DNA of 27,995 nt from an uncultured Candidatus Cloacimonadota bacterium. GTDB lineage: Bacteria; Cloacimonadota; Cloacimonadia; Cloacimonadales; TCS61. The notes beneath the pieces were generated by a model. The model saw only the letters and a program-made list of their open reading frames with translations. It did no database searches and had not been told where the DNA came from. The translations under genes were made by a program, and so were the position numbers. How positions within the stretch are numbered: position 1 is the first letter of the stretch; every line of letters begins with the position of its first letter. Shown here piece by piece: positions 8,162 to 27,995 of the stretch. The stretch lies in contig CAYYLA010000001.1 in NCBI GenBank assembly GCA_964441785.1, positions 9,565 to 37,559 on the forward strand. The letters are read 5' to 3'.

Positions 8162-8184
8162 TATAAATTATCATGAGGGATGTT

Positions 8185-8535: not shown

Positions 8536-8586
8536 TTCTCTTGCTTCCATAAATTCAATTGTCAAAACCTGATCCAAAAGTAAAAT

Positions 8587-10565: not shown

Positions 10566-13364
10566 ATGAAGTTGAGAATGTTTTTGTTACTTCTCATTTT
10601 ATCTTTTTCAATCGCAATCTGGGGTAATCTGATGGTGATGGAAGAAGATTTTGAGGATGGTATTCCTGAGGGTTGGACACAGGAATATGTAAGTGGAACC
10701 GTCGATTGGATAACAAGTTATGGAGGTCATCAGGCAAATCCTGAAGCACCTCATTCAGGAAATAACAACCTGTTTTTCTTTAATGAAGACACAACACCCA
10801 ATACCACACGAATACTAACACCTGCATTTGATTTAAATCCAGAATCAATCACCGTGATGAGTTTCTGGTATACCGCAGATGCCTGGGTTGGATATCAGGA
10901 TGAATTGAGGGTTTATTATCGAATTGGTGATGGTGAATGGCAAGTTCTGGGCGAATATCTGGATGATGTATCTGATTGGACACAGGTCTCTTACACTCTT
11001 CCGGAAGCAGGTGATGATATGCAGTTCTGTTTTGAAGGAACTGCGGTTTGGGGTTATGGATTATGCCTTGATGATGTTGTTGTAATGGATGATGTTCTAA
11101 GAATTTTTGTGTGGAATAATGATAATTACTCGCACTACACCGACCTTGATAATGGTGGTGAGCAGAATTGTGAAGTTGGGATAACAAATCAATTGGATGC
11201 GTTAGGATTAGATTACACCCTGGGAACAAGTTTACCATCGGATCTAAGCAATAATTTTGATATAGTATTTGTAGAGCTTGGTCTCTACTGTGTAGGTTGA
11301 GGTACTACCCCTCCAGGCTCCGTTGGAGCTTCTCAACAGGATGAATTAATTGCGTTTATGGATAATGGTGGTGCTGTTTACATGGAAGGTGCTAATGTTG
11401 CATCGGATGTTGATGGAACAGATTTTATTGAATATTTTGGTGCTGTAGCTACAAGTGCAGGTGCTGGAGCTGGTGTTATGGATGTTTTAGGGATGGATGG
11501 TACGTTTGCTGCTAATACAGCATTTGATTATCCCTATGGTACAGATACCGATTACAATCTTGATGAATTAGCAGCTGATACTGGAACGGAATTCCTCACA
11601 TGCCAGAATGAAACTCCTAGAGCTGTTTATTACAACAGTGGATCTCATCGTGCCATAATTTCATCTGTTGTTATTGGTGGCTTTAAAGATGGTGAAGGAT
11701 CAAATACAAAAGCTTCACTCATGACTCGTTATATTAACTATCTTACTGGTATTGAGGCTGCTGATATTAATATAGCTAATGAAGAAATTGATTTTGGTGT
11801 ACAATATGTGAATTATGCTTTTGATTTTGAGTTGGCTATTCAGAATTTTGGCTTGGCTGATTTGGAGATAACCTCTGTTGAGGTTGTTGGTAACGGTTTC
11901 TCAAGTACAGTAACAGGACCTTTCACACTGGAAATTGGTGAAGAATTCTTGATCCCGGTAACCTTCGAGCAATCAGCATCAGGCAATTATACTGGAACAT
12001 TAACAATTGTATCTAATGATCCTGATGAAAGTGAACTGGTTATCCCTCTCTATGCAGAATGTTTGATGCCTCCTGTATGCCAGTTACCAGGTGATACAAT
12101 TGAAGGTTATGCTCAAGAAGGTGAATCTTCTATGATGGCTTATACAATTACCAATGCCGGTGATAGTGATCTTACCTTTATGCTCAATATTGACGAAGTC
12201 GAAGAAGTTGCTCAAGTATTTACTCCTGTTTATGAAAATGTTCAACTGGGCAAGGATGAAATTGATTGGAGAGAAGGTTATATTAACACTCGTGGCTCAG
12301 GTGGACCAGATAATTTCGGGTATAAATGGAAGGATAGTAATGAAGATTGTGGTCCGGTCTATGAATGGTTTGATATATCCGATATAGGCGAAAACAGTAA
12401 CCTTACGGGAGATGACTCATCTGTTTCATTGGACTTACCATTTGAATTTGATTTCTATGGTGAACCAAAAACTTCAGTTCTGGTTTCTGATAATGGCTAT
12501 CTTACCTTTGGAGGTTCTGCAGCAGTATGGATGAATACTGAGTTGTTAGATCCAAATCCTCCAAATGACATAATATGTCCTTTCTGGGATGACTTAAATC
12601 CACAAAATGGAGGTGTTAATTATAACTATTATGATCAGGATAATGGTCGATTTATTATCCAATATGATGAATGGGCTTACTATTCTGGTGGAAGTCCTCA
12701 AACCTTCCAGGTACAACTCTATATGAACGGCAAAATCAGATTCCTCTACGAATCAATGGATGGTGGAGGAACCCCAACTATCGGTATTGAAAACTCTGTC
12801 GGTGATGATGGATTACAGATTACGTTCAATGAACCTTATGTCGAAAATGGTATGGTAATTGAGTTCTCTTGTGGCCCTGATTGGATAGATACCGATATTT
12901 CCAGTGGAACTATTGCTGCTGGTGAAAGTCAAGATATTATGTTTACATTTGATGCAATCAATTTCCACGATGGAGATTATGAGGCTGTTGCTTATCTTTC
13001 AACAAACGATCCTGCTAATCCGGAATATGTGTTACCCATTATTCTACATGTGGGAAATGTTGATGCAGATGATGATTTTATACCGACCAGAACAGCATTG
13101 TTTGATAATTATCCAAACCCATTTAACCCAGAAACAAAAATCAGTTATTCCCTCAAGAACGAGTGTGATGTAGATCTGATCGTCTATAACGTTAGAGGTC
13201 AGAAAATTAAAACACTACACCAGGGCAACCAGACTGCAGGTGCCTATGAACTGATCTGGAACGGAATGGATGATAATGATAGACCTGTTTCTTCGGGTAT
13301 CTATTACTACAGGTTGGATACTAACGATTATAGTAGTACAAAGAAGATGTTGTTATTGAAATAA
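10566..13364 (+). CDS. Secreted multidomain selenoprotein A (932 aa with Sec245 at TGA 11298-11300): signal peptide, MAM/adhesin-like domain, CxxU alpha/beta domain, choice-of-anchor-D-like Ig domains, NIDO-like domain, FlgD-Ig sorting domain
   Basis: ORFs 10566-11300 and 11358-13364 are in frame with 19 sense codons between them: ELGLYCVG-TGA-GTTPPGSVGASQQDELIAFMDNGG. Signal peptide only on the first part, sorting domain only on the second. SECIS-like hairpin follows; two paralogs have TGA at the same position. Confidence 0.9.
11315..11331 (+). other. Putative bacterial SECIS element for TGA 11298
   Basis: A-GGCTC-[CGTTG]-GAGCT-T; the 5-bp core stem starts at +16 and the loop G is at +22 from the TGA. 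Confidence 0.8.
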
Positions 13365-13446
13365 TAACACTCTATAAAGGATCTTTATTTCTAAGCTCCT
13401 GTATGGTTATCTCTCTTCATCCTAAAGATTGATAATCAACTCCGTA

Positions 13447-13480
13447 AACAACAGCAGCCTTCGGGTTGCTGTTGTTGTTT
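13447..13480 (+). terminator. Intrinsic terminator-like hairpin
   Basis: AACAACAGCAGCC-TTCG-GGTTGCTGTTGTT, a 13-bp stem with a UUCG loop and T-rich 3' side, about 80 nt after the selenoprotein A stop. Confidence 0.75.
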
Positions 13481-13757
13481 ATTGATCATTATAATCATAG
13501 CTAAATGACCTCAAACAATTTCTCCATCTCATTTTTTTTCTGTAACCTGAGATAGGTCGTCCCTAATCAGGTTGAAAAATAAATTATATGGATTTCTAAC
13601 TTTAATCTGATAAGCACCTTAGCGAATAGTTCAATTATGATCGCTTAATTTCTGGTTTAAAATTGCACTTAATTGTTGCCTGATTATGATTCCTGGTATC
13701 ATGATATTTAAAGTGTTTACAATGTATATGTTTTCTTCTAAAGTCTCTTGTTTAAAG

Positions 13758-13774
13758 TGATCAAAAAATGGGCA
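13758..13774 (+). promoter_or_regulatory. Candidate enhancer (UAS) motif TGATCAAAAAATGGGCA
   Basis: 149 nt before the -24 GG at 13907; near-copy of 8011-8027. Confidence 0.45.
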
Positions 13775-13905
13775 ATTTGTCAGTTTAGGACTAATTAGTT
13801 AATATTGAGTGGTAGTGTTAGAAAATAGCTTGATGTTCGTAAGTAGCTATATGGCTATACTATAAGGTGTGTTGTTACCTGCGGTGTGAAAATAATTATG
13901 TTATT

Positions 13906-13921
13906 TGGCACGAAAGTTGTT
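13906..13921 (+). promoter_or_regulatory. Sigma54-type promoter (-24/-12)
   Basis: TGGCACGAAAGTTGTT: perfect TGGCACG -24 box, with TTGT (variant of TTGC) at the correct spacing; upstream of the 13965 gene. Confidence 0.7.
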
Positions 13922-13964
13922 TAATATTTATTAAATAAAATGTGTTAATAATAAGGAGGAGTCA

Positions 13965-16250
13965 ATGATTCCCGGAAAAAAGATAATTTTAATCATAACG
14001 ATTTTGATTGCGATGGCTGGTTTAAGTGCACAAACAGTCCTTGTATGGAATAATGAGATCGCTTCATTTCATTTTACCGATCCCGAAACCGAAAATCAGG
14101 TTGGTGGAGAATATGGTATTACACAAGCGTTAGAAGTAAACAATGTTAACTATCAGATGGAGGACACATTACCTCAGGATTTATCAGGGTTTGATGCGAT
14201 TATCGTACTCTGTGGATCCTGGTGCGTTTCCTGAGGGTGGACAGCGCCAGGCACCGTGAGTGCTGCTGATCAAAACCTCTTGGTAGATTTTATTAATTCT
14301 GGAAAAGGTGTTTATTGGGAAGGTACAAATATTGCCTCTGATCATGAATCCACAACCCTGTGGAATATGTTTGGAGCATCCAATGTAGGTACAGGCCCCG
14401 ATAACGGTGATGTTGTAAACTTAATTGGTAATGCTAACACCTTTGCCGATGGCTTAACATTTGGATATTCACCCTATGGTGAGTATTCCAATGCCAGGGT
14501 GAATCGGCTCAATGTAACAGATGGTACTGCTTTATTGGATTCTGATAACAGTTTCACCAGGGTAGTTTATAACGATACCGGAGCGGGTAGGGTTATTGCT
14601 TCAACTATCATTTTTGGCGGAATTTATAACGAAGATGTTGTAAGTACAAGAAGTAATCTTATGGCATCCTATCTTTCCTATCTTCTTAATATTGATATTC
14701 CAGTTGCCTGGACTTCTGAGGAGATGATTGATTTTGAAACACTATTGCCTGGTACTGAGACAATGCAAACACTTTATCTGAGAAACCTTGGTATGGAGAT
14801 GCTTGAATTGTCTGATATTCAGCTTAGTGGTTCAAATTTTGTCTATCAGGGTGAAGAGAGTTACAGTTTAGATTTTGGACACTATGTTGAGTTACCGGTT
14901 ATTTTTCCCTGTGATGTAGAGGGAGAATTTTCCGAAATACTTTCCATTAACACAAATGATCCTGATAATCCGTTGATAAATGTTTCGGTTACTGGTAGTT
15001 GTTATAGTGCTCCTCAGATCTCTGTTGATGCCAGTGATTTCAACGTGTCAGTTGGGATGGGCAATAGTATGGAGACATCTCTAACCATATCAAATACAGG
15101 TGGTGGTTATCTCGATTATTATATAGAAACCCTCAATGTTACACGGGGAAGCGGTGGTCCCGATAACTTTGGATATACCTGGATCGATAGTAATGATCCT
15201 GAAGGCCCGGTTTATGAATGGTTTGATATCTCAACCATTGGCATTGATGGCGAATTATCTGGTGTTGATGATTATATTACAGTAGAACTACCAATACCAT
15301 TTCCTTTCTATGGAGAAATGCGTAGTGAGATCAAGATATCAACAAACGGATATCTGACCTTTGGCAATGATCCGGTAGATCACTCTAATGATCCTATCCC
15401 ATTTGCCATGGACCCTAACGATTATATTGCTGCTATCTGGGATGATCTTCGTACAGGCGGTGAAAGTATGCTCTACACCTATTTTGATGAAGATAGCAAC
15501 CGCTTTGTTATCCAATATCAGGATTGGAAATTCTACACTGGTGGCGGTACTGGTGACCTTGATTTCCAGATACAACTTTATCCAAATGGAGATATTTTCT
15601 ATTACTACGATAATCTGGAAGGTAGCCTTACCAGCGCTACTGTTGGTATCGAAAATCAAGATGCCAGCGATGGACTCCAGATTGTTTATAATAATGAGTA
15701 TCTGGAAAATCAGTTGGCTGTTAAAATCTCACCCAATCCAACCTGGATGGAACTCGATAATTATTCCGGATCTGTATTTCAGGATGAACCCGTCACTATC
15801 GGTATAAATGTTGATGCATCCAACCTGAATGAGGGTGTTTATAATGCCTTAATTAAAATTCATAATTCCGATGAAGATAATGATTTGATCGAGATACCAG
15901 TAGAATTAACAGTAACTGCTACAGCTTCTGAGGATGAAATTATCCCCCATATACCTGCATTAAATCAAAATTATCCCAACCCTTTCAACCTCACAGCTGC
16001 CGGTCGTGGACCAGTTACAACGATTGATTTCTTTATCCCTGATGATGGGATCTCTGCTGATATCGTGGTTTATAATATGAAGGGGCAGGCGATAGTGACA
16101 TTGGCTCGTAATCAGTATGAAAGAGGTTACTATAGTGTTCACTGGGATGGTAAAGATAGCACTGGAAATGAAGTCAGCGCTGGAATATATTTCTATAAAT
16201 TAACAACAGACAGACATAGCCAGACTAAGAAAATGATTCTAATGAAGTAA
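13965..16250 (+). CDS. Secreted multidomain selenoprotein B (761 aa with Sec90 at TGA 14232-14234): signal peptide, CxxU alpha/beta domain, Ig-like domains, NIDO-like domain, FlgD-Ig sorting domain
   Basis: ORFs 13965-14234 and 14256-16250 are in frame with 7 sense codons between them: VLCGSWCVS-TGA-GWTAPGTVSAADQNLLVDFINSGKG. AGGAG RBS before 13965 and none before 14256; SECIS-like hairpin; paralog of A (shared TRGSGGPDNFGYxWxDSN...GPVYEWFDIS). Confidence 0.9.
14250..14264 (+). other. Putative bacterial SECIS element for TGA 14232
   Basis: GGCAC-[CGTGA]-GTGCT; stem at +16, loop G at +22; compensatory A-T pair where A and C have T-A. Confidence 0.8.
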
Positions 16251-16292
16251 ATAAGGTTCCTTATGAAAATGGTTTGGAAGCAGGGAGTAGAA

Positions 16293-16607
16293 ATGAATCT
16301 GATAGAAGATCTTGCTCAGATAGGATTAACGCTTAATGAATCCAAGGTTTATCTGTCTCTACTGAAAGGTGAACAGTTTTCGGCTGCTCAGTTGGCTAAA
16401 GAGTCAAAGATAAATAGAACAAAAATCTACTGTGTTCTTGGGAATTTGATGAAGCGGGGATTTTGTGAAGAAGTACCAGGAAGGGTAAGGATGTTTCGTG
16501 CGATGGATCCAAAAATCGCAATGAATAAATTAATAAGTTTACATGAAAATAATCTGAAAACAGCGGTTCGGGTAACCGAGATTTTAGCGAGAAGTTTTCA
16601 GACTTAA
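16293..16607 (+). CDS. TrmB-family winged-helix regulator, DNA-binding domain only
   Basis: LAQIGLTLNESKVYLSLL...AAQLAKESKINRTKIYCVLGNLMKRGF...FRAMDP; GGGAG RBS favours ATG 16293 over 16263. Confidence 0.8.
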   Translation: MNLIEDLAQIGLTLNESKVYLSLLKGEQFSAAQLAKESKINRTKIYCVLGNLMKRGFCEEVPGRVRMFRAMDPKIAMNKLISLHENNLKTAVRVTEILARSFQT

Positions 16608-16621
16608 GGAAAGGAGCAGAA

Positions 16622-17074
16622 GTGAAACGAACAATTAATCTATTAGTGTTGGTAGTAATGCTGGTAATTTCTCAACTTTTACTGGCAGATGGGATGGAAC
16701 CGGAAGCGTTAAAGAAAGATGAGGTAAAAATTGTAACGTTATCTGTTGAAAATGGCATATTGCAGGCTCATTACATGATCCCTGAAGATATGCATCAGAC
16801 ATTACAGGAAGACTACTTTTATCTTGATGTTGAACATGGTGATGGTGTAGTTTTTGAAGAAACTGTCTATCCCGAAGGTCATGTAGATGAAGATGGATAC
16901 ATAAATTTTGAAAAGGAAGTTACCTTAACTAAGTCCTTTAAATTATTAGATAATGCTAAACCGGAAGATGTTAAAATTACTGTGTATGCTGGCTATCAAT
17001 ACTGTTACGAAACATATTGTGAACCTCCTGTTGAGGTTGAATTTGAGATAAATCTTACTGAGGGCAAAAAATAG
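16622..17074 (+). CDS. Exported protein resembling the DsbD N-terminal Ig-like domain
   Basis: Signal peptide; beta-rich body with IPEDMHQ; terminal YQYCYETYCEPP cysteine pair positioned like the nDsbD QGC...CYPP motif. Confidence 0.65.
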   Translation: MKRTINLLVLVVMLVISQLLLADGMEPEALKKDEVKIVTLSVENGILQAHYMIPEDMHQTLQEDYFYLDVEHGDGVVFEETVYPEGHVDEDGYINFEKEVTLTKSFKLLDNAKPEDVKITVYAGYQYCYETYCEPPVEVEFEINLTEGKK

Positions 17075-17083
17075 GGGATAACT

Positions 17084-17236
17084 ATGAAGCTTAAGAAATT
17101 TCTCACATTTTGGATGCCATTGATCATCATCGTACTGGCAATCAATTTTATTCTTATGGGTATTGGAGTGGAAGAGTTTCCCGAAATGGCAAGCAAGGCA
17201 ATTAATCTTTGCCTGGGCTGAATCGGGTTAGGGTAG
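17084..17236 (+). CDS. Small membrane selenoprotein (50 aa with Sec46 at TGA 17219-17221), CD1871A-like CxxC family with CxxU; absent from the ORF track
   Basis: MKLKKFLTFWMPLIIIVLAINFILMGIGVEEFPEMASKAINLCLG-TGA-IGLG-TAG. GGGGA RBS before 17084. The C-terminus matches the family pattern KAxxxCxxCIGxG and the gene sits directly before a 4Fe-4S binding protein; hairpin downstream of the TGA. Confidence 0.85.
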
Positions 17237-17247
17237 GTGGAACCTAT
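17233..17247 (+). other. Putative SECIS element for TGA 17219, overlapping the TAG stop and the next start region
   Basis: GTAGGT-[GGA]-ACCTAT, 6 bp including one G-T pair; first loop G at +18. Confidence 0.6.
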
Positions 17248-18115
17248 GAAGAAAAAAATCAACCTTTTCAGTAGAAACAAGATCAGACTGTTTGTCCTGT
17301 TTCTGGCACTTTTTGTTATCAATGGTCATTTCTATGTAAAATATTACGAAGGAGTGATGGAGATTCTTAAGCATATTCCATTGCCTGTGTTAAATTGTTA
17401 CTCTTCTCCGTCAACTGTCTGGGCTTGTCCTATTGGTTTGTTGCAACACTTCATTGTTATTGGATCTTTTTCCTTTGCAACTCTGGGCATTTTACTGTTG
17501 ATTGGAGCCTTTATCGGGCGATGGGCTTGTGGGTGGCTCTGTCCTTTTGGTTTTCTGCAGGAAGCATTATATCATATTCCAACCAGAAAATTTAAATTAC
17601 CTATGTGGACGAAATATATCAAATACGTTATCTTTGTGGCAGGTGTGATAATCTTACCGATGTTTTTAAAGAATGAGATAGGTATGACGGAGACCTGGTT
17701 CTGCAATTTCTGTCCGGCCGGTTGTCTCGAAGCGGGTATCCCTGTTCCTATTATGGATCCCAGTCTGAGATATCTCATCGGGACAATGTATTGGATAAAA
17801 ATTGCAATATTGATTTTGGTTGTGATTATCCCAAGTATTTTTATAAAACGACCTTTCTGCTCGATTATCTGCCCGCTTGGAACTTTGATGGGGGTCTGTA
17901 ATTCATTCAGTTTCTTGAAGCTTCGTTTTGACAGGAGTAAGTGTGTCGATTGCGGATTATGTTCTACCGATTGCCCCATGGGTTTAAATCCAACTACAGA
18001 TTATGGCTCTCCTGAATGCATCCTTTGCATGAACTGTACTAAAGAGTTTTGCAGTGCCATAAAACCAGAATTTAATAATAAATTTGTTGAAAGAAAAAAA
18101 GAGATAAAGGAGTAA
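17246..18115 (+). CDS. NapH/MauN/RdxA-like polytopic membrane 4Fe-4S binding protein
   Basis: Hydrophobic helices; WACPIG, RWACGWLCPFG, FCNFCPAG, PFCSIICPLG; ferredoxin motifs CVDCGLCSTDCP and CILCMNCTKEFC. Start is ATG 17246 or GTG 17237. Confidence 0.88.
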   Translation: MKKKINLFSRNKIRLFVLFLALFVINGHFYVKYYEGVMEILKHIPLPVLNCYSSPSTVWACPIGLLQHFIVIGSFSFATLGILLLIGAFIGRWACGWLCPFGFLQEALYHIPTRKFKLPMWTKYIKYVIFVAGVIILPMFLKNEIGMTETWFCNFCPAGCLEAGIPVPIMDPSLRYLIGTMYWIKIAILILVVIIPSIFIKRPFCSIICPLGTLMGVCNSFSFLKLRFDRSKCVDCGLCSTDCPMGLNPTTDYGSPECILCMNCTKEFCSAIKPEFNNKFVERKKEIKE

Positions 18116-18658: not shown

Positions 18659-18669
18659 TGGAGTTGGAA

Positions 18670-19761: not shown

Positions 19762-19770
19762 GGAGTAACG

Positions 19771-20364: not shown

Positions 20365-21830
20365 TGAAAAAGATAATATTAATTACACTCTTGTTAATTG
20401 TTGGATCTATTTTGCTGGCTGATGACTTTTCTATCAGTGGTATCAATGAAGCACACTATGTCTATAAAAGCGCTGAAGATTCACTTAATCAATATTTCCA
20501 GGATAAATTTAAATTCTTACTGCAATATAATGATTTTCGCTTTGGTATGACCTATGTAGGCGAATTCCCAAAATATCGTAAATTTGAACCATTGGCAGAA
20601 TTGGATCCATCCAACCTGCATAATGAGTGGGAAGAACGTTATGTGGAATTTAACACAGGCGAATATATGGTTAAAGCAGGTAATTTCGATGCCCTTATTG
20701 GATCAGGTATGATATTGCATGCCTACTATAACGAAGATCTTGATGAGGATTATCGACTCGATGGTTTCTATGGACGGGTTGTTAAAGATGCCTGGTCGCT
20801 ACAGGCTTTTCATGGTATTTTGCCAACCGAAGATGCCTCTTTTGAAGCAGATGATGTTATCAATGGTGCCGATCTGGAGATAACGCCTATCGCTCCATTA
20901 ACTCTTGGATTTGCCGCTCTCTCTAATCAGGAATATCAAGGGGCTGATAATTATAATTACAGCATTAGAGAAGTGATATCCGGGCGAATGGGATTCTATC
21001 ATGACTATTTTGAAGTAAATGCCGAATATGCTGAAAGTAAACAGTATCATAATGAATTCGGTGGTACAAAATACGGCAACGCTTTCTACTCTGATTTGAA
21101 TGTTTATGCTGGTATGTTTACAGTTACAGGTGCTTATAAAAACTATGATAAATTTGTGCATCGTCTTAATGAACTTCCAACCGTAAATCACAGTGAAGAA
21201 CCATTGGTGGATTATGGATATGATGTAGGTTCAGGTGAAGAAGGTTATATGGCTGTGGTTAGATTCGTGCCAAATTTCGAGAATGAACTGGTTGTTAATT
21301 TTGCCAACGGTTGGTCTAAAGATGATACCATTGAACAGATTGATATTCATGCCGAATATCGTAGAGATTTTGAATCCTTTACGCTTATCACAGAATATAG
21401 CCATCTGGAAAACACCTGGGAGATAGATAATGTAAACTATTGGGCACAGGAAATGACTCCAAAAATCAGTGTGGATTTCTTATTAGGCGATATGCCAACT
21501 ATGCTTAAAGCTGAATATAAGATAGAAAAACATGAGGAATATACCCATATCAGTGAAGAGACCATAAAGTACGAACCAACACTTCAGGCTGATATCGGTA
21601 TCAAGCAATACGCAATATCTCTGTTGGCAAGTTATCACTATCTTGATGGTGAAGATATCAATGCGAATACTCCTAAAATCGGGGTTGAATTTGTAGCTCC
21701 TTTATGGAATCATACTGAACTTAAACTCTTTGCCGGTAGCGAAAAGGGTGGTCTTGTCTGCCGTAACGGTGTTTGTAATTATCAGGCTCCTTTCGAGGGT
21801 GCACGAATAGATCTTACTACAAGATTTTAA
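20364..21830 (+). CDS. Outer-membrane beta-barrel protein, DUF6029-like, with a C-terminal cysteine pair
   Basis: Signal peptide; alternating amphipathic strands; GNFDALIGSGMIL; terminal KGGLVCRNGVCNYQAPFEGARIDLTTRF ending in an aromatic residue. Confidence 0.7.
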   Translation: MKKIILITLLLIVGSILLADDFSISGINEAHYVYKSAEDSLNQYFQDKFKFLLQYNDFRFGMTYVGEFPKYRKFEPLAELDPSNLHNEWEERYVEFNTGEYMVKAGNFDALIGSGMILHAYYNEDLDEDYRLDGFYGRVVKDAWSLQAFHGILPTEDASFEADDVINGADLEITPIAPLTLGFAALSNQEYQGADNYNYSIREVISGRMGFYHDYFEVNAEYAESKQYHNEFGGTKYGNAFYSDLNVYAGMFTVTGAYKNYDKFVHRLNELPTVNHSEEPLVDYGYDVGSGEEGYMAVVRFVPNFENELVVNFANGWSKDDTIEQIDIHAEYRRDFESFTLITEYSHLENTWEIDNVNYWAQEMTPKISVDFLLGDMPTMLKAEYKIEKHEEYTHISEETIKYEPTLQADIGIKQYAISLLASYHYLDGEDINANTPKIGVEFVAPLWNHTELKLFAGSEKGGLVCRNGVCNYQAPFEGARIDLTTRF

Positions 21831-21850
21831 ATATAATTAATGAGGTTAAA

Positions 21851-22900
21851 ATGAAGAAAATTTTCTTAACTTTAATTGTGCTTGCATTTGCTCTTTTATC
21901 TGCAACACAGCTAAATGTTATCAGTGAACTGTTTACTGTTATTCCCGATTGTTGATGTATTGATGACTACGCTCGTGTAGCGTTGGACGACTATGCTTTA
22001 CAAGCTCCCCATGCTATACCGTTGTGGTGGAGTATGGAGTCCGAAATGCCATCACCAATGGCTGAAGAACGTTTTACTCTCTATCAGGGTGAGAATACTC
22101 CGCACGCATTTTTTGGTCGTATCGAAGAGGTTGACGCATGGAATTGTATGGATTATGTTAACTTCTGTAGTGCCTATGATGCTGTCGCCAGTAATACAGC
22201 TTATGCTGAGATTGATCTCGATTTTTATTCTACTTCTGCTGGCCAATATTCGGTTGCTGCAGAGGTAAATCTTGTAGAAGATGTTATAACGACAAACAAC
22301 AAAATATTCTTTGTAATAGTTGGAAAACTAACTGGAGAATCTCGTGACCCGGGATATTGGAATAATCGCGTTATCGCTGCCTCTGAATCTCAGGATTTCT
22401 CACTTTTAACAAGCGGTGAAACAGCCTCTTTTTCAGCAGATTTTGCCCTCGACCTTTCTGACTATGCTGACCATGGAGCTTATGAAGAGGAATACCTGCA
22501 CGCTGTTGCTATTATCCAATCCTATGATAATCTGATGATTCTTCAAAGTGAGATTGTACAGTTCGGTCTGTCTGATTCGCCTGACTCTGACATTGTTCCA
22601 GCTAATGTTTCTTTGAAACAGAACTGGCCTAATCCCTTTAATCCAGCACAAACAGGTCGTGGCCCTGCAACAACGATAGAATTTACAACCAGAAAAGCTG
22701 CATCAACAGAACTCTCTATCTATAACCTGAAAGGACAAAAAGTGATAACATTGGTTAATCAAAATCTTGAAGCTGGGGATTATTCATATTCATGGTCTGG
22801 TAGTGATGATAATGGACATGAGGTTAGCTCGGGTGTTTATTACTATATCTTAAAATCAGCCGAATCCGTCGAAACCAGAAAAATGCTTTTAATGAAATAA
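21851..22900 (+). CDS. Secreted Omp28-like thioredoxin-fold selenoprotein (349 aa with Sec35 at TGA 21953-21955, Cys-Sec-Cys motif) with FlgD-Ig sorting domain
   Basis: GAGG RBS then MKKIFLTLIVLAFALLSATQLNVISELFTVIPDC-TGA-CIDDYARVAL, in frame with ORF 21983-22900. TPHAFFG cis-Pro loop; C-terminal NWPNPFNP...RKMLLMK; hairpin follows the TGA. Confidence 0.85.
21969..21983 (+). other. Putative SECIS element for TGA 21953
   Basis: ACGCT-[CGTGT]-AGCGT, perfect 5 bp; loop G at +20. Confidence 0.72.
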
Positions 22901-22911
22901 AATGAAAGGAA

Positions 22912-22945
22912 TCAGCCATCGCTGGCTTCTTCCAGTGATGGCTGA
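22912..22945. other. Strong hairpin between the Omp28-like gene and arsR (terminator-like or operator)
   Basis: TCAGCCATCGCTGG-CTTCTT-CCAGTGATGGCTGA, 14 bp with one G-T pair; no U-tract. Confidence 0.6.
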
Positions 22946-22953
22946 CATTGATT

Positions 22954-23253
22954 ATGAATATTGAAGATAAAAAAAGATTCTCTAAGATGGCTGAAATCAG
23001 TAAAGCTCTGGCTCATTCCTCCAGATTGTTTATTCTACATAAACTTGATGCTCAGGAACTTTGTGTTAAAGAGCTTGCTCAATTGATTGGATCAGATATC
23101 TCTACTGTATCAAAACACCTTGCTCAATTGAAAAATGTTGGTTTAGTTACAGATGAAAAACGCGGTAATTGCGTCTATTACCATCTGCAATGTAGGTGTG
23201 TATTGAATATTTTCAGTTGTGTAGAGAATGTAATATCAGCCACTCGGGAATAA
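22954..23253 (+). CDS. ArsR/SmtB-family transcriptional regulator
   Basis: KALAHSSRLFIL...ELCVKELAQLIGSDISTVSKHLAQLKNVGLV...RGNCVYYHL; Cys-rich tail CRCVLNIFSC. Start is ATG 22954 or TTG 22948. Confidence 0.93.
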   Translation: MNIEDKKRFSKMAEISKALAHSSRLFILHKLDAQELCVKELAQLIGSDISTVSKHLAQLKNVGLVTDEKRGNCVYYHLQCRCVLNIFSCVENVISATRE

Positions 23254-23270
23254 AAAAAATTTAAAGAACG

Positions 23271-23296
23271 TTTGGCTATTTGCGCAATAAGCCAAA
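23271..23296. promoter_or_regulatory. 26-bp near-perfect palindrome upstream of ccdA (candidate operator)
   Basis: TTTGGCTATTTGCGCAATAAGCCAAA matches its reverse complement at 22 of 26 positions and ends just before the GAGGTG RBS. Confidence 0.5.
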
Positions 23297-23309
23297 TAGA
23301 TGAGGTGTT

Positions 23310-24017
23310 ATGTTAACGTTATTTGAAGAACTTACTTTGGCCCTTTATGGAAACCCTGGTGTTGCTTTGGCCGCTTCACTTCTTTGGGGCATTCTCAGTA
23401 TTCTTATCAGCCCTTGCCACCTTGCTGCAATCCCCCTGGTCGTCGCTTTTATCAATGATCAGAAGGAGATAACAACCGGTAAGGCATTCAGGATTTCCTT
23501 TATGTTTTCTCTGGGAATCTTGATAACCCTGGTTGCTGTTGGTCTGATAACGTCTCTCACAGGCCTGATTCTTGGAAGTACCGATATGATAATGCGCATC
23601 GTTATCAGCATCGTGTTACTATTTGTCGGTTTATACTTTCTTGGAGTGGTCCCATTACCCGATTTTGGTGGTGTATCCAATAAACGAATGTCCAGGAATC
23701 CCTATGTTAGTGGGTTAATCCTGGGTCTATTTTTTGGGATTGCTCTTGGACCTTGTGCCTTCGCATTTATGGCACCAATTCTGGGGATTGTGATGCAGAA
23801 TATTGAAACGGGATTTCTATTTTCTATAGCTCTTCTGGTCATGTTTCTGATTGGACATTGTGGTGTTTTGATATTGGCTGGAACCTTTACAAGATTGGTG
23901 AAGCAATTTCTCGCTTGGGATGCTGCCGCAAAGGGCACACTCATTATCAGAAAAATCTGTGGAATTCTAATTATTATCGGAGCAGTTTACACCTTTGTTA
24001 AAGCTGTTCATTTTTAG
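23310..24017 (+). CDS. ccdA: CcdA/DsbD transmembrane electron transporter
   Basis: Six hydrophobic segments; ISPCHLAAIP and ALGPCAFAF, the two conserved PC motifs. Confidence 0.9.
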   Translation: MLTLFEELTLALYGNPGVALAASLLWGILSILISPCHLAAIPLVVAFINDQKEITTGKAFRISFMFSLGILITLVAVGLITSLTGLILGSTDMIMRIVISIVLLFVGLYFLGVVPLPDFGGVSNKRMSRNPYVSGLILGLFFGIALGPCAFAFMAPILGIVMQNIETGFLFSIALLVMFLIGHCGVLILAGTFTRLVKQFLAWDAAAKGTLIIRKICGILIIIGAVYTFVKAVHF

Positions 24018-24033
24018 AAGACAAAAGAAAAGA

Positions 24034-24103
24034 GAAAAAAGAAAAAAGAAAAAAGAATAAAGAATAAAGAATAAAGAATAAAGAATAAAGAATAAAGAAT
24101 AAA
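24034..24103 (+). repeat. Intergenic heptamer tandem repeat (GAAAAAA)3(GAATAAA)7
   Basis: Counted directly: three GAAAAAA units at 24034-54 followed by seven GAATAAA units at 24055-103. Confidence 0.95.
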
Positions 24104-24142
24104 GGTTAAGCCTTGTATGTTTAGAAGTAAAAGGAGAAAATA

Positions 24143-24382
24143 ATGGATATAAAAATTCTAGGAACCGGATGTCCAAAATGCAATAAGCTTGAGAAAAATG
24201 TCAGGAAAGCTGTGGAAGAAATTGGATTAGATGCAGAGATTACAAAGATTTCTGATCTGGAAGAGATAATGAGTTTTGGTGTAATGATGACGCCTGGTTT
24301 GGTAGTAGATGGAGAACTGAAATCTTCGGGAAAATTATTAAAACCGAAAGATATAACAAAATTATTGAAGGATAAATTATAA
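24143..24382 (+). CDS. Small cytoplasmic thioredoxin-like protein (MTH895-type redox-active disulfide protein)
   Basis: MDIKILGTGCPKC...GVMMTPGLVVDG; AAGGAG RBS. Confidence 0.92.
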   Translation: MDIKILGTGCPKCNKLEKNVRKAVEEIGLDAEITKISDLEEIMSFGVMMTPGLVVDGELKSSGKLLKPKDITKLLKDKL

Positions 24383-24777
24383 TGAAAAAGATCATAATTA
24401 CAGTGTTTCTCGCTGTCTTTGCTTTTCTCTTGTTTGGATCGGAAACCATGGTTGGAAAAGCTGATACCACTTCTGTTTCAACAACAATCACGTTTATAGA
24501 ACTTGGATCAATAACCTGTGTACCCTGTAAGCAGATGGAAAAAGTGTTAGAAGCAACGGAAGAGAAATATGGCGATCAGATTGAAGTAATATTCTATGAT
24601 ATCATGAAAGATCGATCAAAATCTAAAGAGTACAATGTTAGGATAATGCCGACCCAGGTTTTTCTTAATAGTGATGGAAAAGAGATTCATCGTCATATTG
24701 GATACTATCCACAGAAGCAATTAGATGAATTTCTGCAGAAACAGGGATTAATTCCTCTGGAGAATAATGATGAATAA
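24382..24777 (+). CDS. Exported thioredoxin-family protein
   Basis: Signal or anchor peptide; FIELGSITCVPCKQM; VRIMPTQVF; HIGY. Confidence 0.9.
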   Translation: MKKIIITVFLAVFAFLLFGSETMVGKADTTSVSTTITFIELGSITCVPCKQMEKVLEATEEKYGDQIEVIFYDIMKDRSKSKEYNVRIMPTQVFLNSDGKEIHRHIGYYPQKQLDEFLQKQGLIPLENNDE

Positions 24778-25678
24778 ACTGATTGCGGTTGTGTTAGTTT
24801 TTCTTGCGATCAGTTGCATGTTAGATGCGCACGAAATAGCTCTGCACTATGCTCTTGAAGGAACCGAAACCTATGGTGGTGATGAGATAAGGGGATGGGA
24901 AGTAGATTTTTTAACCCTGGATTGGGGTGATAATGATTTCTCTGATTATGGTGTAACTGTTAAATTTACATTCAGTAAATCAGATGTCTCAAAAATTGTC
25001 TTAACCAAAGGTTGGAAACGATTTGATTTAGGAAAAAACTGGAATCTTACTGTGGGTAAACAACAATATGGTTTCGGATTATTCAGTGGCTCCGGTTGTG
25101 GATGAGGTGGTTCGGGATCCGTGGGATCCGGCTGCGTGAGTTATTATTCATTTAAACAGTTGATTGCAGATGCTGATTTTAACCTTAAAGTGGATAAACA
25201 GATTGGTGATCTCAATGGTCAGATTTATATTGGACATACCCTGAAAGAGGAAGCTGCTGTCGGTTCCAGAATTTCCTGGGATTTTAACAATCTTGAATTA
25301 GGTGTTGCAGCACTTTGGCTCGATTATCAGGATGAAGAACAACAGCTGACAAACTATGAATTTGATCTGCAATATACCTTGCCAAAATACATAAATGTGA
25401 AAACTCAAATTGGTAATATCGATGATGGTAATAATGATACAGATGACTTAAACTTTTTTTGTCTGATTCAAAAGGATGAACCATTTTACATCCCATTTGT
25501 AAAAGAGATCATTCCCTATGCTGGTATCTCCACAAGAGATGAAATGAAAGAAAATAGTGTAATAATGGGACTGAACTTTTCACCTGTAACTGATGCGTAT
25601 ATCAAAATAGAACATGTGCTGGATTCCAGCGAAGATGTCGATCCCAGGAGCGATATTCAGGTCGGTTACACGTTCTAA
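24770..25678 (+). CDS. Outer-membrane beta-barrel selenoprotein (about 302 aa, Sec at TGA 25103-25105) with a Gly/Ser-rich C-G-U...C loop
   Basis: ORFs 24767-25105 and 25121-25678 are in frame with 5 sense codons between them: GKQQYGFGLFSGSGCG-TGA-GGSGSVGSGCVSYYSFK. Signal peptide only on part 1; terminal beta-signal DIQVGYTF only on part 2; hairpin follows the TGA. Confidence 0.85.
25115..25129 (+). other. Putative SECIS element for TGA 25103
   Basis: GGATC-[CGTGG]-GATCC (6 bp if C-G closes a GTG loop); loop G at +16. Confidence 0.72.
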
Positions 25679-25705
25679 ATATATTTTGTTATAATCATGG
25701 CTTTC

Positions 25706-25745
25706 GTAACAGTAGGGACGAGATGTGTGTCGTCTCTACTGTTAC
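25706..25745. repeat. REP-like GTAG...CTAC inverted repeat at the end of the operon
   Basis: GTAACAGTAGGGACGA-GATGTGTG-TCGTCTCTACTGTTAC, a 16-bp stem with one G-T pair; the core GTAGGGACG...CGTCTCTAC resembles GTAG-type REP elements. Confidence 0.65.
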
Positions 25746-25820
25746 ACAATAATTTTACTTGCATATAACCTGATACTGAATAAGAAATTGTCTATCAATT
25801 ATTATGTATGAGGAGGTTTT

Positions 25821-27995
25821 ATGCGAGTTAGGATTTTTTTGTGTTTGTTATTGATCTTATCAGTGTTAACCCTTTGGGGAGAAGCAATAGTCTGGGAAGC
25901 TGATTTTGCCAGTCAGGAAACGGAATGGCAACTGGATGAAAACTGGATGAATGCCGGTGATTATCTTGTACTGAACTGGTCTCCTGCAATTATCGATTAT
26001 GATTTATCTGCTATATCGCCAGAGATCGAACTACCTGAAGATACAAATGAGTTAACAGTCTCTCAATGGATTTCCGAATATATGACCAATGAAGGTGAGT
26101 ATGCCGAAATCAATATATTGTCCGATGGGAATTCCACAAATATCTGGTCATTGGAGTTAGATGGAACTGACTGGGGTGTTATGGACGGTGAAGAATTAGC
26201 ATTGGATATTAGTGCTTTTTCCAACACAACAATTCAGATTGAATTCAGAAGCTTTGGATCATCAACCTTTAACTTCAATTATTGGTATCTATATGGGATG
26301 CAGATAGAAGCCTTTCTCGATCATGATGTCAGTGCTGTCTCAATCTCAGGAACCTCATCAATGTTTGTTAACGAAGAGGGTAACTGGACCGTTACTGGTA
26401 TGAATTCCGGTTTATTTGAAGAGAATGATGTTCAGGTTTCGTTGATGAATGGTGATACAGAGATTTCTACAATTGCTGTGGAAGGTCCGCTGGCGGTTGG
26501 TGAAGAGTTCAATCTCGATTTCACCTGGACTCCAACTGAGGATCAGGTTGCGTTGCTGCGAGGAGTAATAACTATGCCGGGGGATGAATATCTATCCAAT
26601 AATGAGACAGAGCCATTTCTGGTAAATATCTATCCAGAGGATGCGATTGTCGCTTTGATCTGGGATAATGATAATGGTTCTTATGTGGGAGCTACAGGTA
26701 CAGAGGAATATCTGGAACAGGTTTTAGATGAAGCTAATATTATCTATGAAACATCTCTAAGTTTGCCACAGGATCTTTCATCCTACGATGCGATTTTTAT
26801 TGCCCTTGGCGTTTATTGCGTGGGCTGAGGTGTAACCCCTCCCGGCTCTGTAGGAGCTCAAGAACAAATCCGTTTAATTGATTTCGTAAATAGTGGTAAA
26901 GGTCTCTATATAGAAGGTTCTGATTTTGCTGCTTCCCATCAGGGAACTGATTTTTTCAACCTTTTTGGATGTGATTTGACTAATAATGAGACAGGAGATG
27001 TCGGCACATTACAAGGTCAGATTGGTACAATGGTTGATGGTATGAACTTTGACTTCTCAAACGGGATGGATGAAAACTATTCGGTTGATGGATTATCGGC
27101 AAATGATGGGACGATGCTGTTTACTTCAGGTCTCTACGGCAGAGTTGTAATGAATTCTGCTCAGGGTGGACGAACCATCTGCTCTACTCCTGTGTTGGGA
27201 GGATACATAGAAAATGGTGATAATTCCCATCTGAATCTTTTCCAGCAATATCTGACCTATCTAGTTGATCCTGAAGCATCTGCCATGATTCCATCCAACT
27301 TTGCTGCCGAGTTGATCAGCGATGATGTCTACATGGATTGGATGGCACCGGATAATTTGACTGGTCTGCTGGGGTATAATGTCTACAAAAATGGGATGTT
27401 ACTAAACAGTGAAGTAGTTGAGGAAGCCGAATATGTCGAAGAAAATATTGATTATGGAGTACATTCTTATTGGGTTACTGCAATCTATGAAGGTGATGTA
27501 GAAAGTAACTCTTCGAATCATGCAACTATCGTTTATTCCGATCCCACCAGTGGCTATGCTCTCGACTTTGATGGGATTACCTCCGAGGTTGTTGTTACCG
27601 ATGCTCCAGATTTAAATCCAACCGAACAGATTTCGGTAGAAGCATGGGTTAAATTAGCTGGAATCACAAGCCTTCCTTCCATTGTCAGTAAAGAGGATTG
27701 GAGTACAGGTGAAACGGGGTATGTATTAAGAATTGATGATTTTGTTAATACAAATACGCCCCAATTTCAAATAGGGACAGCGCAGGGTTGGATAGCAGCC
27801 AGTGCTCCGCTGGGGTCTATACCTTTTGATACCTGGACGCATGTAGCAGGAACCTATGATGGATCCAATATTAAAATCTATATTGATGGTGAACTGGAAG
27901 GGACCCAACCTTGCTCCGAAACAATTAACATCTCTCCTATAGATTTAAGAATCGGTGGGCATATGGAAGGATCTAACAGGTACTGGAATGGTGTG
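25821..27995 (+). CDS. Secreted multidomain selenoprotein C, 3'-partial (Sec336 at TGA 26826-26828): signal peptide, adhesin-like domain, CARDB-like Ig, CxxU alpha/beta domain, FN3-like, LamG/concanavalin-like domain
   Basis: IALGVYCVG-TGA-GVTPPGSVGAQEQIRLIDFVNSGKGLYIEG; by my translation the frame stays open from 26829 to the window end (…MDWMAP…GYNVY…YWVTAIY…; YALDFDG…ISVEAWVK…WTHVAGTYDGSNIKIYIDG). The ORF track does not list this part. Confidence 0.9.
26844..26858 (+). other. Putative SECIS element for TGA 26826
   Basis: GGCTC-[TGTAG]-GAGCT; stem at +16, loop G at +22. Confidence 0.8.

What the first reader, a model, noticed from the sequence alone, without database searches (positions are those of the whole stretch)
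11298..26858. A lineage-specific minimal SECIS consensus can be read from the window, with a compensatory base pair
Seen: A GGCTC-CGTTG-GAGCT, C GGCTC-TGTAG-GAGCT and B GGCAC-CGTGA-GTGCT all start exactly 16 nt after the TGA. B swaps T-A for A-T on both arms, changing the encoded peptide from PGSVGA to PGTVSA while keeping the pairing. Unrelated genes converge on the same loop: ACGCT-CGTGT-AGCGT (Omp28-like) and GGATC-CGTGG-GATCC (barrel), giving a YGTNN loop on a 5-bp stem. The peptide gene has a GGA loop instead. Established: bacterial SECIS loops carry a G near the 5' side of the apical loop a short distance after the UGA. Inference: selection acts on RNA structure here, and the consensus could be used to mine the rest of the genome.
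Basis: partly seen in the sequence, partly recalled or inferred. Interest (0 to 1): 0.72.

Follow-up and report, generated by a model that had tools for sequence, protein, structure and literature searches.

The report
Selenocysteine insertion hairpins, canonical type
The short RNA hairpins after six in-frame TGA codons in this window are real selenocysteine-insertion signals kept by natural selection, but their shape is the already published general bacterial one, not a signature of this lineage.

Summary
All quoted hairpins exist at the stated coordinates, and A, B and C start 16 nt after their TGA. The window holds six Cys-adjacent in-frame TGAs: three paralogues (A, B, C), a small CLGU peptide, an "omp" protein and a barrel protein.

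Homologues from about 70 genomes, mainly Cloacimonadota, show strong covariation. In 66 Sec-form relatives of A/B/C, three stem pairs use four to six pair types. The third base of a Gly codon tracks the first base of the codon four positions later. The omp and peptide hairpins also covary. The barrel hairpin is only conserved.

A 5-bp stem with an NGUNN loop follows 74% of family Sec codons. It follows 2% of true TGA stops and 0.24% of in-frame sense codons.

So selection on RNA structure is supported. "Lineage-specific" is not. The loop equals the published bacterial SECIS pattern N1-G-[G|U]-N-N2 with 16-37 nt spacing. It is also not uniform: the peptide and most omp homologues use GGA, AGG or GGU loops. 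Bacteroidales relatives of A/B/C use a longer stem.

A hairpin-only covariance model finds four of the six window sites with few false positives. These are new members of a known kind of element.

The parts
10566..13364 (+). Gene A: exported multidomain selenoprotein (MAM-like, GATase1-like CxxU domain, Ig-like domains, T9SS C-terminal domain)
   Evidence: One frame is open across a single TGA. Pfam domains.
11298..11300 (+). Sec codon of A (LYCVG-U-GTTPPG)
   Evidence: In-frame TGA in a CxxU motif. It aligns with TGA in 66 homologues and TGC in 5.
11315..11331 (+). SECIS hairpin of A: AGGCUCC-GUU-GGAGCUU
   Evidence: RNAfold hairpin, -8.1 kcal/mol alone. Covariation. CM hit of 20.9 bits.
13965..16250 (+). 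Gene B: paralogue of A (CVS-U-GWTAPG)
14232..14234 (+). Sec codon of B
14250..14264 (+). SECIS hairpin of B: GGCAC-CGUGA-GUGCU. RNAfold adds a lower stem, 14242-14245 with 14265-14268.
   Evidence: CM hit of 19.8 bits. Carries the A-U for U-A compensatory pair relative to A and C.
17084..17236 (+). Small membrane peptide gene, CD1871A family, ending CLG-U-IGLG-stop
   Evidence: Sequence. NCBIfam NF040920, E 2.4e-8. Conserved with its TGA in L196, L211, L214, L215, L220 and L224.
17219..17221 (+). Sec codon of the peptide gene
   Evidence: The family is a CXXC family.
17233..17247 (+). SECIS hairpin of the peptide gene: GUAGGU-GGA-ACCUAU. It spans the gene's own stop codon (17234-17236) and the AU of the next gene's ATG (17246).
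   Evidence: Six homologues carry a hairpin at the same place with unrelated stem sequences and GGA, AGG, GGU or AGGU loops.
21851..22900 (+). 'omp' gene: exported protein with a C-U-C motif and a T9SS C-terminal domain
   Evidence: Homologues L196 and L202-L207 all keep the TGA next to Cys.
21953..21955 (+). Sec codon of omp (IPDC-U-CIDDY)
21969..21983 (+). SECIS hairpin of omp: ACGCU-CGUGU-AGCGU
   Evidence: Covariation at third codon positions in 8 homologues: pair 21-33 is UA5 CG2 AU1, pair 24-30 is AU4 GC2 UA2, with 0/500 shuffles reaching the covariation score.
24767..25678 (+). 'barrel' gene: predicted beta-barrel or porin-like protein with a GSGCG-U-GGSGSVGSGC loop
   Evidence: weak Porin_O_P match. 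The orthologue in L196 keeps the TGA.
25103..25105 (+). Sec codon of barrel
25115..25129 (+). SECIS hairpin of barrel: GGAUCC-GUG-GGAUCC
   Evidence: RNAfold. Best hit in the window of the family-derived CM, 21.7 bits, E 3.8e-4. The L196 orthologue GGAUCU-GUA-GGAUCC keeps pairing through a C-to-U wobble.
25821..27995 (+). Gene C: third paralogue (VYCVG-U-GVTPPG); runs off the window end
26826..26828 (+). Sec codon of C
   Evidence: Conserved in the L196 orthologue.
26844..26858 (+). SECIS hairpin of C: GGCUCU-GUA-GGAGCU
   Evidence: CM hit of 15.7 bits.

Best explanation
The six hairpins are bacterial SECIS elements, in six selenoprotein genes of a Cloacimonadota-like bacterium.

**Proposed mechanism.** Each is a 5-7 bp stem with a 3-5 nt apical loop. 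The loop exposes G-U (A, B, C, omp, barrel) or G-G (peptide) and begins 15-21 nt after the UGA. When the ribosome places the UGA in the A site, the hairpin lies just outside the mRNA entrance. The C-terminal winged-helix domain of SelB binds the loop and delivers Sec-tRNA(Sec), so UGA is read as selenocysteine rather than as stop.

**Shown here.** The UGAs are in frame, next to Cys, and conserved. The hairpins are conserved as structure through compensatory changes, including at synonymous sites. They are very rare after true stops.

**Inferred.** SelB binding and actual Sec insertion.

**Consequence for the protein.** Because the element lies inside the reading frame, its constraints shape the protein. 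In the A/B/C family they give PPG-x-V-G-[A/T/S/P], where Val is GUN (the loop) and the last residue is NCY pairing with GGN of Gly. The consensus is the known general bacterial one, not a lineage signature.
For: 1. **TGA is recoded, not reassigned.** Five other window genes end in TGA. In-frame TGAs occur only at CxxU, CU or CGU motifs.
2. **Sec/Cys alignment.** The TGA aligns with TGC in five Cys-form homologues and with further Cys forms P0008, P0011, P0020, P0106 and P0087. The peptide belongs to a CXXC family.
3. **A/B/C family covariation.** In 66 distinct Sec forms in an ungapped alignment, pair 30-40 is UA24 AU16 CG10 GC4 UG3 GU2; pair 31-39 is GC28 UA13 AU12; pair 32-38 is CG36 UA13 UG10 AU1. 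The covariation score is 0.338 against 0.140 shuffled (0/500), and slid registers reach at most 0.159. Mutual information is 1.04 and 0.92 bits for true partners and 0-0.3 off register. RNAalifold predicts only this helix in 72 nt.
4. **The hairpin moves when the loop codon is lost.** Where the Val codon is replaced by Ile in Sec forms, a new GGCUC-GGUC-GAGCU hairpin appears 9 nt downstream.
5. **Cys forms.** The two most divergent Cys forms have lost both the hairpin and the GUN codon.
6. **omp and peptide.** omp has covariation at third codon positions. Peptide homologues have six unrelated stems at the same place in non-coding sequence.
7. **Controls.** The descriptor hits 49/66 Sec sites against 1/48 TGA stops, 1/160 TAA, 0/90 TAG and 4/1680 sense codons. 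The single TGA-stop hit is an intrinsic terminator. All 52 descriptor hits among 465 open-frame TGAs in 538 kb are Cys-adjacent Sec sites.
8. **Covariance model.** The hairpin-only CM ranks the unrelated barrel site first in the window. It gives 2 false positives among 57 hits in 1.07 Mb.
9. **Fit to the published model.** See PMC13188914 and PMC8659212. Cloacimonetes are reported to carry a tRNA(Sec) (PMC5330540).
Against: - There is no experimental evidence of Sec insertion or SelB binding.
- No selA, selB, selD or tRNA(Sec) lies in the window.
- The hairpins are weak on their own, -3.9 to -8.1 kcal/mol. Single-sequence z-scores are not significant.
- The minimum-energy fold of the omp segment does not contain the proposed hairpin.
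- Three of five Cys-form lineages still carry a hairpin, so the hairpin is not exclusive to Sec forms. Recent Sec-to-Cys conversion would explain this.
- The barrel loop starts 14-15 nt after UGA, just under the published 16-37 range. Its hairpin has only one informative homologue.
- Sequences in the covariation tests are phylogenetically related, so the shuffle statistics overstate independence.
- No Rfam family matched.
Confidence: 0.9

Rival explanations
1. The minimal hairpin is a SECIS class specific to Cloacimonadota and its allies. It has a 5-7 bp stem, a 3-5 nt G[U/G] loop, no bulged U and no lower stem. It co-evolved with this lineage's SelB and its unusual 7+5 tRNA(Sec).
For: All four unrelated selenoprotein families in the window and their Cloacimonadota homologues use short stems and small loops. 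Within the same A/B/C family, Bacteroidales copies use a different 9-10 bp stem, CCUGGU...ACCAGG, with a 7-nt loop. A Cloacimonetes-type tRNA(Sec) is described (PMC5330540).
Against: The loop pattern and spacing fall inside the published general consensus (PMC13188914). The same minimal hairpin occurs in Zixibacteria, Ignavibacteria and Armatimonadota copies. Only four gene families were examined, and none of the classical ones (FdhA, GrdA/B, SelD). No SelB sequence was examined.
Confidence: 0.2
2. The self-complementarity is a by-product of a conserved peptide (G-x-V-G-small residue) and has no RNA function.
For: The hairpin coincides with the most conserved peptide of the domain. A GAVGV peptide without any TGA gives the same hairpin in L134. 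Some Cys forms keep the hairpin.
Against: The synonymous third base of the Gly codon covaries with the first base of the A/T/S/P codon through all four Watson-Crick pairs. omp covariation lies at third codon positions. The peptide-gene hairpins lie in non-coding DNA. The hairpin relocates by 9 nt when Val becomes Ile. The encoded segment is a lower-confidence surface loop in the predicted fold.
Confidence: 0.04
3. The in-frame TGAs are not selenocysteine. They are a reassigned sense codon (code 4 or 25), pseudogene lesions or sequencing errors, and the hairpins are unrelated.
For: One public protein of the family (P0033) is translated with W at the TGA.
Against: Five window genes terminate at TGA. 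48 long ORFs in related loci end at TGA with a closed frame behind. The TGA is conserved at one Cys-adjacent position across about 70 genomes and aligns with Cys. Both halves of each gene stay under purifying selection.
Confidence: 0.02
4. The hairpins act as pause, attenuation or terminator signals rather than as SelB-binding sites. For the peptide gene, the hairpin could occlude the start codon of the next gene.
For: The peptide-gene hairpin covers its own stop codon and the start codon of the NapH-like gene. The one true-stop hit of the descriptor is a terminator.
Against: No U-run follows the window hairpins. Five of the six lie inside long reading frames. The fixed spacing from UGA and the G[U/G] loop are unexplained by this reading. 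A second regulatory role for the peptide-gene hairpin is not excluded and would be additional, not alternative.
Confidence: 0.03

Closest known systems
General bacterial SECIS consensus (bSECISearch model of Zhang and Gladyshev, as restated in PMC13188914, Fig. 2)
   Same: The element is a stem-loop directly 3' of the Sec UGA. It has a 3-9 nt apical loop on a 4-16 bp stem, with G in the first two loop positions. The preferred loop pattern N1-G-[G|U]-N-N2, with N1 and N2 pairing, is exactly the NGUNN/GUN form seen here. Spacing is 16-37 nt.
   Different: The stems here sit at the short end of the range (5-7 bp) and have no conserved lower stem. The barrel loop starts 14-15 nt after UGA. Hairpin-alone energies are mostly weaker than -7.5 kcal/mol.
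E. coli fdhF SECIS (minimal 17-nt upper stem-loop 11 nt after UGA; G23, U24 and bulged U17; PMC8659212)
   Same: A minimal apical hairpin of 15-17 nt is placed 9-15 nt after UGA. It has G-U in the loop, at nt 25-26 from the U of UGA in A, B and C, against 23-24 in fdhF. Some family members carry the same GGUC tetraloop.
   Different: There is no bulged U in the 5' arm. There is no 40-nt extended helix that includes the UGA. In A and C only a 4-bp GAGG/CCUC mini-helix touches the UGA.
SECIS placed after the stop codon for C-terminal Sec (as used to express C-terminal-Sec proteins in E. coli; own knowledge)
   Same: The Sec of the peptide gene lies four codons before the stop. Its SECIS lies over and beyond the stop codon, in the intergenic spacer.
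   Different: Here the arrangement is natural. It also overlaps the start codon of the downstream NapH-like gene.
CD1871A family CXXC motif-containing protein (NCBIfam NF040920)
   Same: The window peptide matches the family model over residues 13-50, E 2.4e-8 and 33.7 bits against a cutoff of 32.
   Different: The second Cys of the CXXC is encoded by TGA (CLG-U) in the window and in six homologues.

Membership tests
Bacterial SECIS element (published consensus model, PMC13188914) | Stem-loop immediately 3' of an in-frame UGA within a continuous reading frame | tested here: met
   Six sites meet this. For the peptide gene the element extends past the stop codon because Sec is four codons from the end.
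Bacterial SECIS element (published consensus model, PMC13188914) | Apical loop of 3-9 nt on an upper stem of 4-16 bp | tested here: met
   Loops are 3-5 nt and stems 5-7 bp at all six sites.
Bacterial SECIS element (published consensus model, PMC13188914) | G in one of the first two loop positions, usually G[G|U] | tested here: met
   Loops are GUU/CGUUG, CGUGA, GUA/UGUAG, CGUGU, GUG and GGA. In the family, 59/66 sequences have GU in a 3-5 nt loop.
Bacterial SECIS element (published consensus model, PMC13188914) | 16-37 nt between the UGA and the apical loop | tested here: inconclusive
   A, B and C have 20-21 nt, omp 18 and the peptide 17, so these meet the range. The barrel has 14-15 nt, just outside it. 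Family homologues have 20, 21 or 29 nt.
Bacterial SECIS element (published consensus model, PMC13188914) | Minimum free energy of -7.5 kcal/mol or lower | tested here: inconclusive
   For 48-nt segments the values are A -12.2, B -16.3, C -9.9, barrel -14.4, omp -7.9 and peptide -6.8. Hairpins alone give -3.9 to -8.1. The result depends on the segment folded.
Bacterial SECIS element (published consensus model, PMC13188914) | Structure conserved through compensatory changes among homologues (the general criterion for a functional RNA helix) | tested here: met
   Met for the A/B/C family, omp and the peptide. The barrel has only one homologue, with one wobble-compatible change.
Selenoprotein gene (Sec/Cys criterion used in PMC1088965 and PMC12013277) | The UGA aligns with Cys in homologues and is conserved in other Sec-using organisms | tested here: met
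   A/B/C family: 67 TGA and 5 TGC, plus other Cys forms. Peptide: a CXXC family. For omp and barrel only TGA-containing homologues were found.
Bacterial SECIS element | Bound by SelB, and UGA decoded as Sec | not testable with these tools
   This needs reporter, binding or proteomic experiments.
Bacterial SECIS element | The genome encodes selA, selB, selD and tRNA(Sec) | not tested
   None of these lies in the window. Whole genomes could not be scanned. The literature reports a Cloacimonetes-type tRNA(Sec) (PMC5330540).
E. coli fdhF-type SECIS | Bulged U in the 5' arm of the upper stem (U17) and a long lower helix that includes the UGA | tested here: not met
   The stems are continuous, with no conserved bulge or lower helix. 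These elements work like fdhF-type SECIS but are not members of that subtype.
Rfam RNA families | Match to a curated covariance model | tested here: not met
   No relevant hit at E up to 10 in the whole window.

The most novel reading that the evidence does not exclude
Cloacimonadota and allied uncultured phyla may use an unusually compact SECIS: 5-7 bp, a G[U/G] loop, no bulge and no lower stem. It would be matched to their divergent SelB and 7+5 tRNA(Sec). Being only five codons long (G-x-V-G-x), it could behave as a portable 'Sec plus SECIS' cassette that is dropped into surface loops of unrelated exported proteins. The barrel loop U-GGSGSVGS and the family loop U-GxTPPGSVG[AST] share the same GGAUC...GAUCC cassette. 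This would explain a 16-kb island with six secreted selenoproteins and a family in which Sec forms far outnumber Cys forms.
Probability: 0.2. Interest if true: 0.65.

Novelty: new member of a known kind. Interest (0 to 1): 0.42.

Why it matters
Bacterial SECIS elements are hard to model, and selenoprotein genes are routinely split by gene callers. Every protein of these families in the public protein sets is truncated at the TGA.

This window and its relatives give a rare, clean covariation data set: 66 distinct sequences in an ungapped alignment for a minimal in-frame SECIS. It shows directly how RNA pairing dictates the amino acids of the encoded loop.

It also flags four apparently undescribed or under-annotated selenoprotein families. 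These are a GATase1-like CxxU domain on T9SS cargo, a C-U-C T9SS protein, a barrel protein and the Sec form of CD1871A peptides. They sit inside an extracytoplasmic thiol-redox gene cluster.

For the finding as stated, the value is confirmatory. The consensus is the known one. On its own it finds only part of the local selenoproteome.

Tried and rejected
- **Rfam scan of the window** at E up to 10: only chance snoRNA-like hits.
- **tRNA scan:** none found.
- **Single-sequence thermodynamics:** z-scores are not significant, so energy alone cannot validate the hairpins.
- **First collection pattern** (TGYNNNNNNTGAGGNNNNACNCCNCCNGG): too loose. It was replaced by a pattern anchored on the downstream YxEG motif.
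- **Word-indexed protein search:** two hits each for barrel, omp and the A domain, because the database entries are truncated at the TGA.
- **tblastn of omp, barrel and peptide against the fetched family loci:** nothing beyond L196.
- **Metagenome scan for barrel homologues:** none found.
- **Search for further Sec candidates lacking the descriptor in 538 kb:** too noisy to interpret.
- **Structure prediction with U replaced by C:** A Cys-form homologue domain was modelled instead.
- **Code reassignment, pseudogenes, peptide by-product and terminator readings:** considered and rejected for the reasons given under the rival explanations.

Full report
**Observation**

The five quoted 15-mers each occur once on the + strand at the stated places. 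In A (TGA 11298-11300), B (14232-14234) and C (26826-26828), exactly 15 nt separate the TGA from the stem, so the stem starts at +16. In omp (TGA 21953-21955) the gap is 13 nt. In barrel (25103-25105) it is 9 nt.

The reading frames are open on both sides of each TGA, and every TGA is next to Cys. The contexts are LYCVG-U-G, SWCVS-U-G, VYCVG-U-G, IPDC-U-C and GSGCG-U-GG.

The 'peptide gene' with the GGA loop is 17084-17236. It encodes a 50-residue membrane peptide ending CLG-U-IGLG. Its hairpin GUAGGU-GGA-ACCUAU lies at 17233-17247. The T-A to A-T swap in B and the PGSVGA to PGTVSA change are as described.

Two refinements apply.
- RNAfold prefers 6-7 bp with a GUU or GUA triloop for A and C, and does not choose the quoted hairpin for omp.
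- None of the segments folds better than shuffles (z -0.1 to -0.9). The hairpins alone are weak, -3.9 to -8.1 kcal/mol.

**Context**

TGA is an ordinary stop in this genome. Five other window genes end in TGA, so a reassigned code is excluded.

A, B and omp carry type IX secretion C-terminal domains. The genes between them are thiol-disulfide redox genes:
- a DsbD_N-like gene;
- a NapH-like ferredoxin;
- two TlpA/AhpC-like genes;
- DsbD_TM;
- two thioredoxins;
- ArsR.

The Sec-bearing domain of A, B and C has no Pfam or NCBIfam model. An AlphaFold model of a Cys-form homologue (pLDDT 91) is a class-I glutamine-amidotransferase-like or ThuA-like fold. The CxxC/U motif lies in the loop after a central strand. 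The SECIS-encoded peptide lies in the least confident part of that loop.

Relatives are almost all uncultured Cloacimonadota, with a few Zixibacteria, Ignavibacteria, Armatimonadota and Bacteroidales. A syntenic orthologous locus, L196, keeps the TGA of omp, barrel, C and the peptide.

**Covariation in the A/B/C family**

The collection pattern was anchored on U-G-x-T-P-P-G and a YxEG motif 61 nt downstream. Neither includes the 3' arm. It returned 67 TGA and 5 TGC copies in species-representative genomes.

The 66 distinct Sec sequences align without gaps. For the helix at columns 27-33 and 37-43:

| Pair | Pair types |
|---|---|
| 30-40 | UA24 AU16 CG10 GC4 UG3 GU2 (7 unpaired) |
| 31-39 | GC28 UA13 AU12 |
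| 32-38 | CG36 UA13 UG10 AU1 |

The covariation score is 0.338 against 0.140 for shuffles (0/500 reach it). Every slid register scores 0.159 or less.

Column 30 is the synonymous third base of a Gly codon. Column 40 is the first base of the codon that then reads Ala, Thr, Ser or Pro. Their mutual information is 1.04 bits, against about 0 for neighbouring registers. RNAalifold, run without any hint, predicts this helix and nothing else in 72 nt.

Sec forms in which the loop Val (GUN) is replaced by Ile carry a new GGCUC-GGUC-GAGCU hairpin 9 nt further downstream.

The Cys-form lineages differ.
- Two keep a hairpin.
- One keeps a weak hairpin.
- The two most divergent (PPGYISP and PPSTINP) have lost both the pairing and the GUN codon.

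This is what a SECIS under selection in Sec forms, decaying after conversion to Cys, would look like. A peptide-level constraint cannot explain it.

**The unrelated genes**

- **omp.** Six further Cloacimonadota homologues at 30-38% identity all keep a Cys-adjacent TGA. The hairpin sits on the A-R-x-A codons. The two variable pairs lie at third codon positions and are never broken: UA5 CG2 AU1 and AU4 GC2 UA2. The covariation score is 0.44 against 0.13, with 0/500 shuffles reaching it. Loops are CGUGU or CGUGC in four sequences and GGA in four.
- **Peptide.** Five metagenomic homologues plus L196 keep CLG-U-IGLG-stop. Each has a hairpin just after the stop with unrelated stems: UAGGU/ACCUA, AUAGGG/CCCUAU, AUAGGC/GCCUGU, UCAGUU/AACUGA, GAGUAA/UUACUC and GAAGUAA/UUACUUC. 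Loops are GGA, AGG, GGU or AGGU and begin 17-24 nt after UGA.
- **Barrel.** Only one homologue exists in the collections. It keeps the hairpin through a C-to-U wobble, and the RNAfold lower stem is not conserved. However, a covariance model built only from the family hairpins ranks the barrel hairpin first in the whole window, at 21.7 bits and E 3.8e-4.

The descriptor is a 5-bp stem (at most one G-U) with an NGUNN loop, starting 8-26 nt downstream.

| Context | Hits |
|---|---|
| Family Sec codons | 49/66 |
| True TGA stops | 1/48 |
| TAA stops | 1/160 |
| TAG stops | 0/90 |
| In-frame sense codons | 4/1680 |

The one TGA-stop hit is an intrinsic terminator.

Among 465 TGAs with open frames on both sides in 538 kb, all 52 distinct descriptor hits are Cys-adjacent Sec sites. 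The CM gives 57 hits at E up to 1 in 1.07 Mb. Two of these are false; one is a GAVGV-coding stretch without a TGA. Equivalent hairpins are therefore not common after true stops.

**Comparison with what is known**

The published bacterial SECIS model requires:
- a 3-9 nt loop;
- a 4-16 bp stem;
- G in the first two loop positions, mostly as N1-G-[G|U]-N-N2 with N1 and N2 pairing;
- 16-37 nt spacing;
- an MFE of -7.5 kcal/mol or lower (PMC13188914).

The E. coli minimal element is a 17-nt stem-loop 11 nt after UGA, with G23 and U24 in the loop and a bulged U17 (PMC8659212).

The window hairpins fit the general model feature by feature. The exceptions are the barrel spacing of 14-15 nt and the energy criterion, which depends on the segment folded. 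They lack the fdhF bulge and lower helix.

Hence 'YGTNN on a 5-bp stem' is the known consensus, not a lineage-specific one. It is also not the only form in this lineage, given the GGUC, GGA, AGG and GGU loops.

One result does speak for some lineage dependence. The seven Bacteroidales members of the same family use a longer CCUGGU...ACCAGG stem with a 7-nt loop. I could not test classical selenoprotein genes or SelB of Cloacimonadota, so the strong lineage-specific reading stays open at low probability.

**Verdict**

- The inference of selection on RNA structure is strongly supported.
- The 'lineage-specific consensus' and 'genome mining' claims are only partly supported.
- The elements are new members of a known kind.
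- The most interesting by-products are the clean covariation set and the island of six exported selenoproteins.

Noticed in passing
window 10566-27995: This stretch is a selenoprotein island. Six Cys-adjacent in-frame TGAs lie within 16 kb, all in proteins with signal peptides. Three of those proteins have T9SS C-terminal domains. They are interleaved with extracytoplasmic thiol-disulfide genes: DsbD_N-like, NapH-like, two TlpA/AhpC-like, DsbD_TM, two thioredoxins and ArsR. The synteny is kept in L196.
   Followed up: partly
window 11088-11750 (and the equivalent parts of B and C): The Sec-bearing domain has no Pfam or NCBIfam model. It is predicted to be a class-I glutamine-amidotransferase-like or ThuA-like fold, with CxxU at the nucleophile-elbow loop. 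In this subfamily Sec forms far outnumber Cys forms (67 TGA against 5 TGC among species representatives), which is unusual.
   Followed up: partly
window 17233-17248: The SECIS of the small CLGU peptide gene includes the gene's own UAG stop codon and the AU of the ATG of the downstream NapH-like ferredoxin gene. Homologues show the same arrangement. Selenium or SelB binding might therefore couple to translation of the next gene.
   Followed up: partly
window 11299-11313 and 26827-26841: A 4-bp mini-helix, GAGG/CCUC, pairs the G and A of the UGA with the Pro-Pro codons in A and C. The only variable position, the third base of the first Pro codon, is U in 40 of 66 homologues. It is unclear whether this helps shield the UGA or just reflects codon use.
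   Followed up: partly
L014, L063, L106, L151, L155, L158, L166 (Bacteroidales MAGs): Members of the same selenoprotein family in Bacteroidales replace the minimal hairpin with a 9-10 bp interrupted stem (CCUGGU...ACCAGG) and a 7-nt loop. This suggests the SECIS architecture follows the host lineage.
   Followed up: partly
window 25103-25129 versus L003 632-680: The barrel Sec loop (U-GGSGSVGS; GGAUCC-GUG-GGAUCC) and a family member (U-GETPPGSVGS; GGAUC-AGUUG-GAUCC) share the same SECIS cassette. This is possible evidence for a portable 'Sec plus SECIS' module, or for convergence.
   Followed up: no
L134, L141, L163, L194, L167: Cys-form (TGC) copies of the family still carry intact SECIS-like hairpins: GGUGC-GGUCG-GCACC, or the shifted GCUC-GGUC-GAGC. 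They are probably fossil SECIS elements after recent Sec-to-Cys conversion.
   Followed up: partly
public protein sets (P0001-P0156): All database proteins of these families are split or N-terminally truncated at the TGA. One entry (P0033) is translated with Trp at the TGA, so the families are systematically mis-annotated.
   Followed up: partly
window 3096-10257: Upstream of the island lies a duplicated regulatory module: TPR histidine kinases at 4907-6571 and 8587-10257, single-domain response regulators at 3096-3458 and 8173-8535, and a sigma-54 activator at 6568-8013. It may control the island.
   Followed up: no
   Followed up: no
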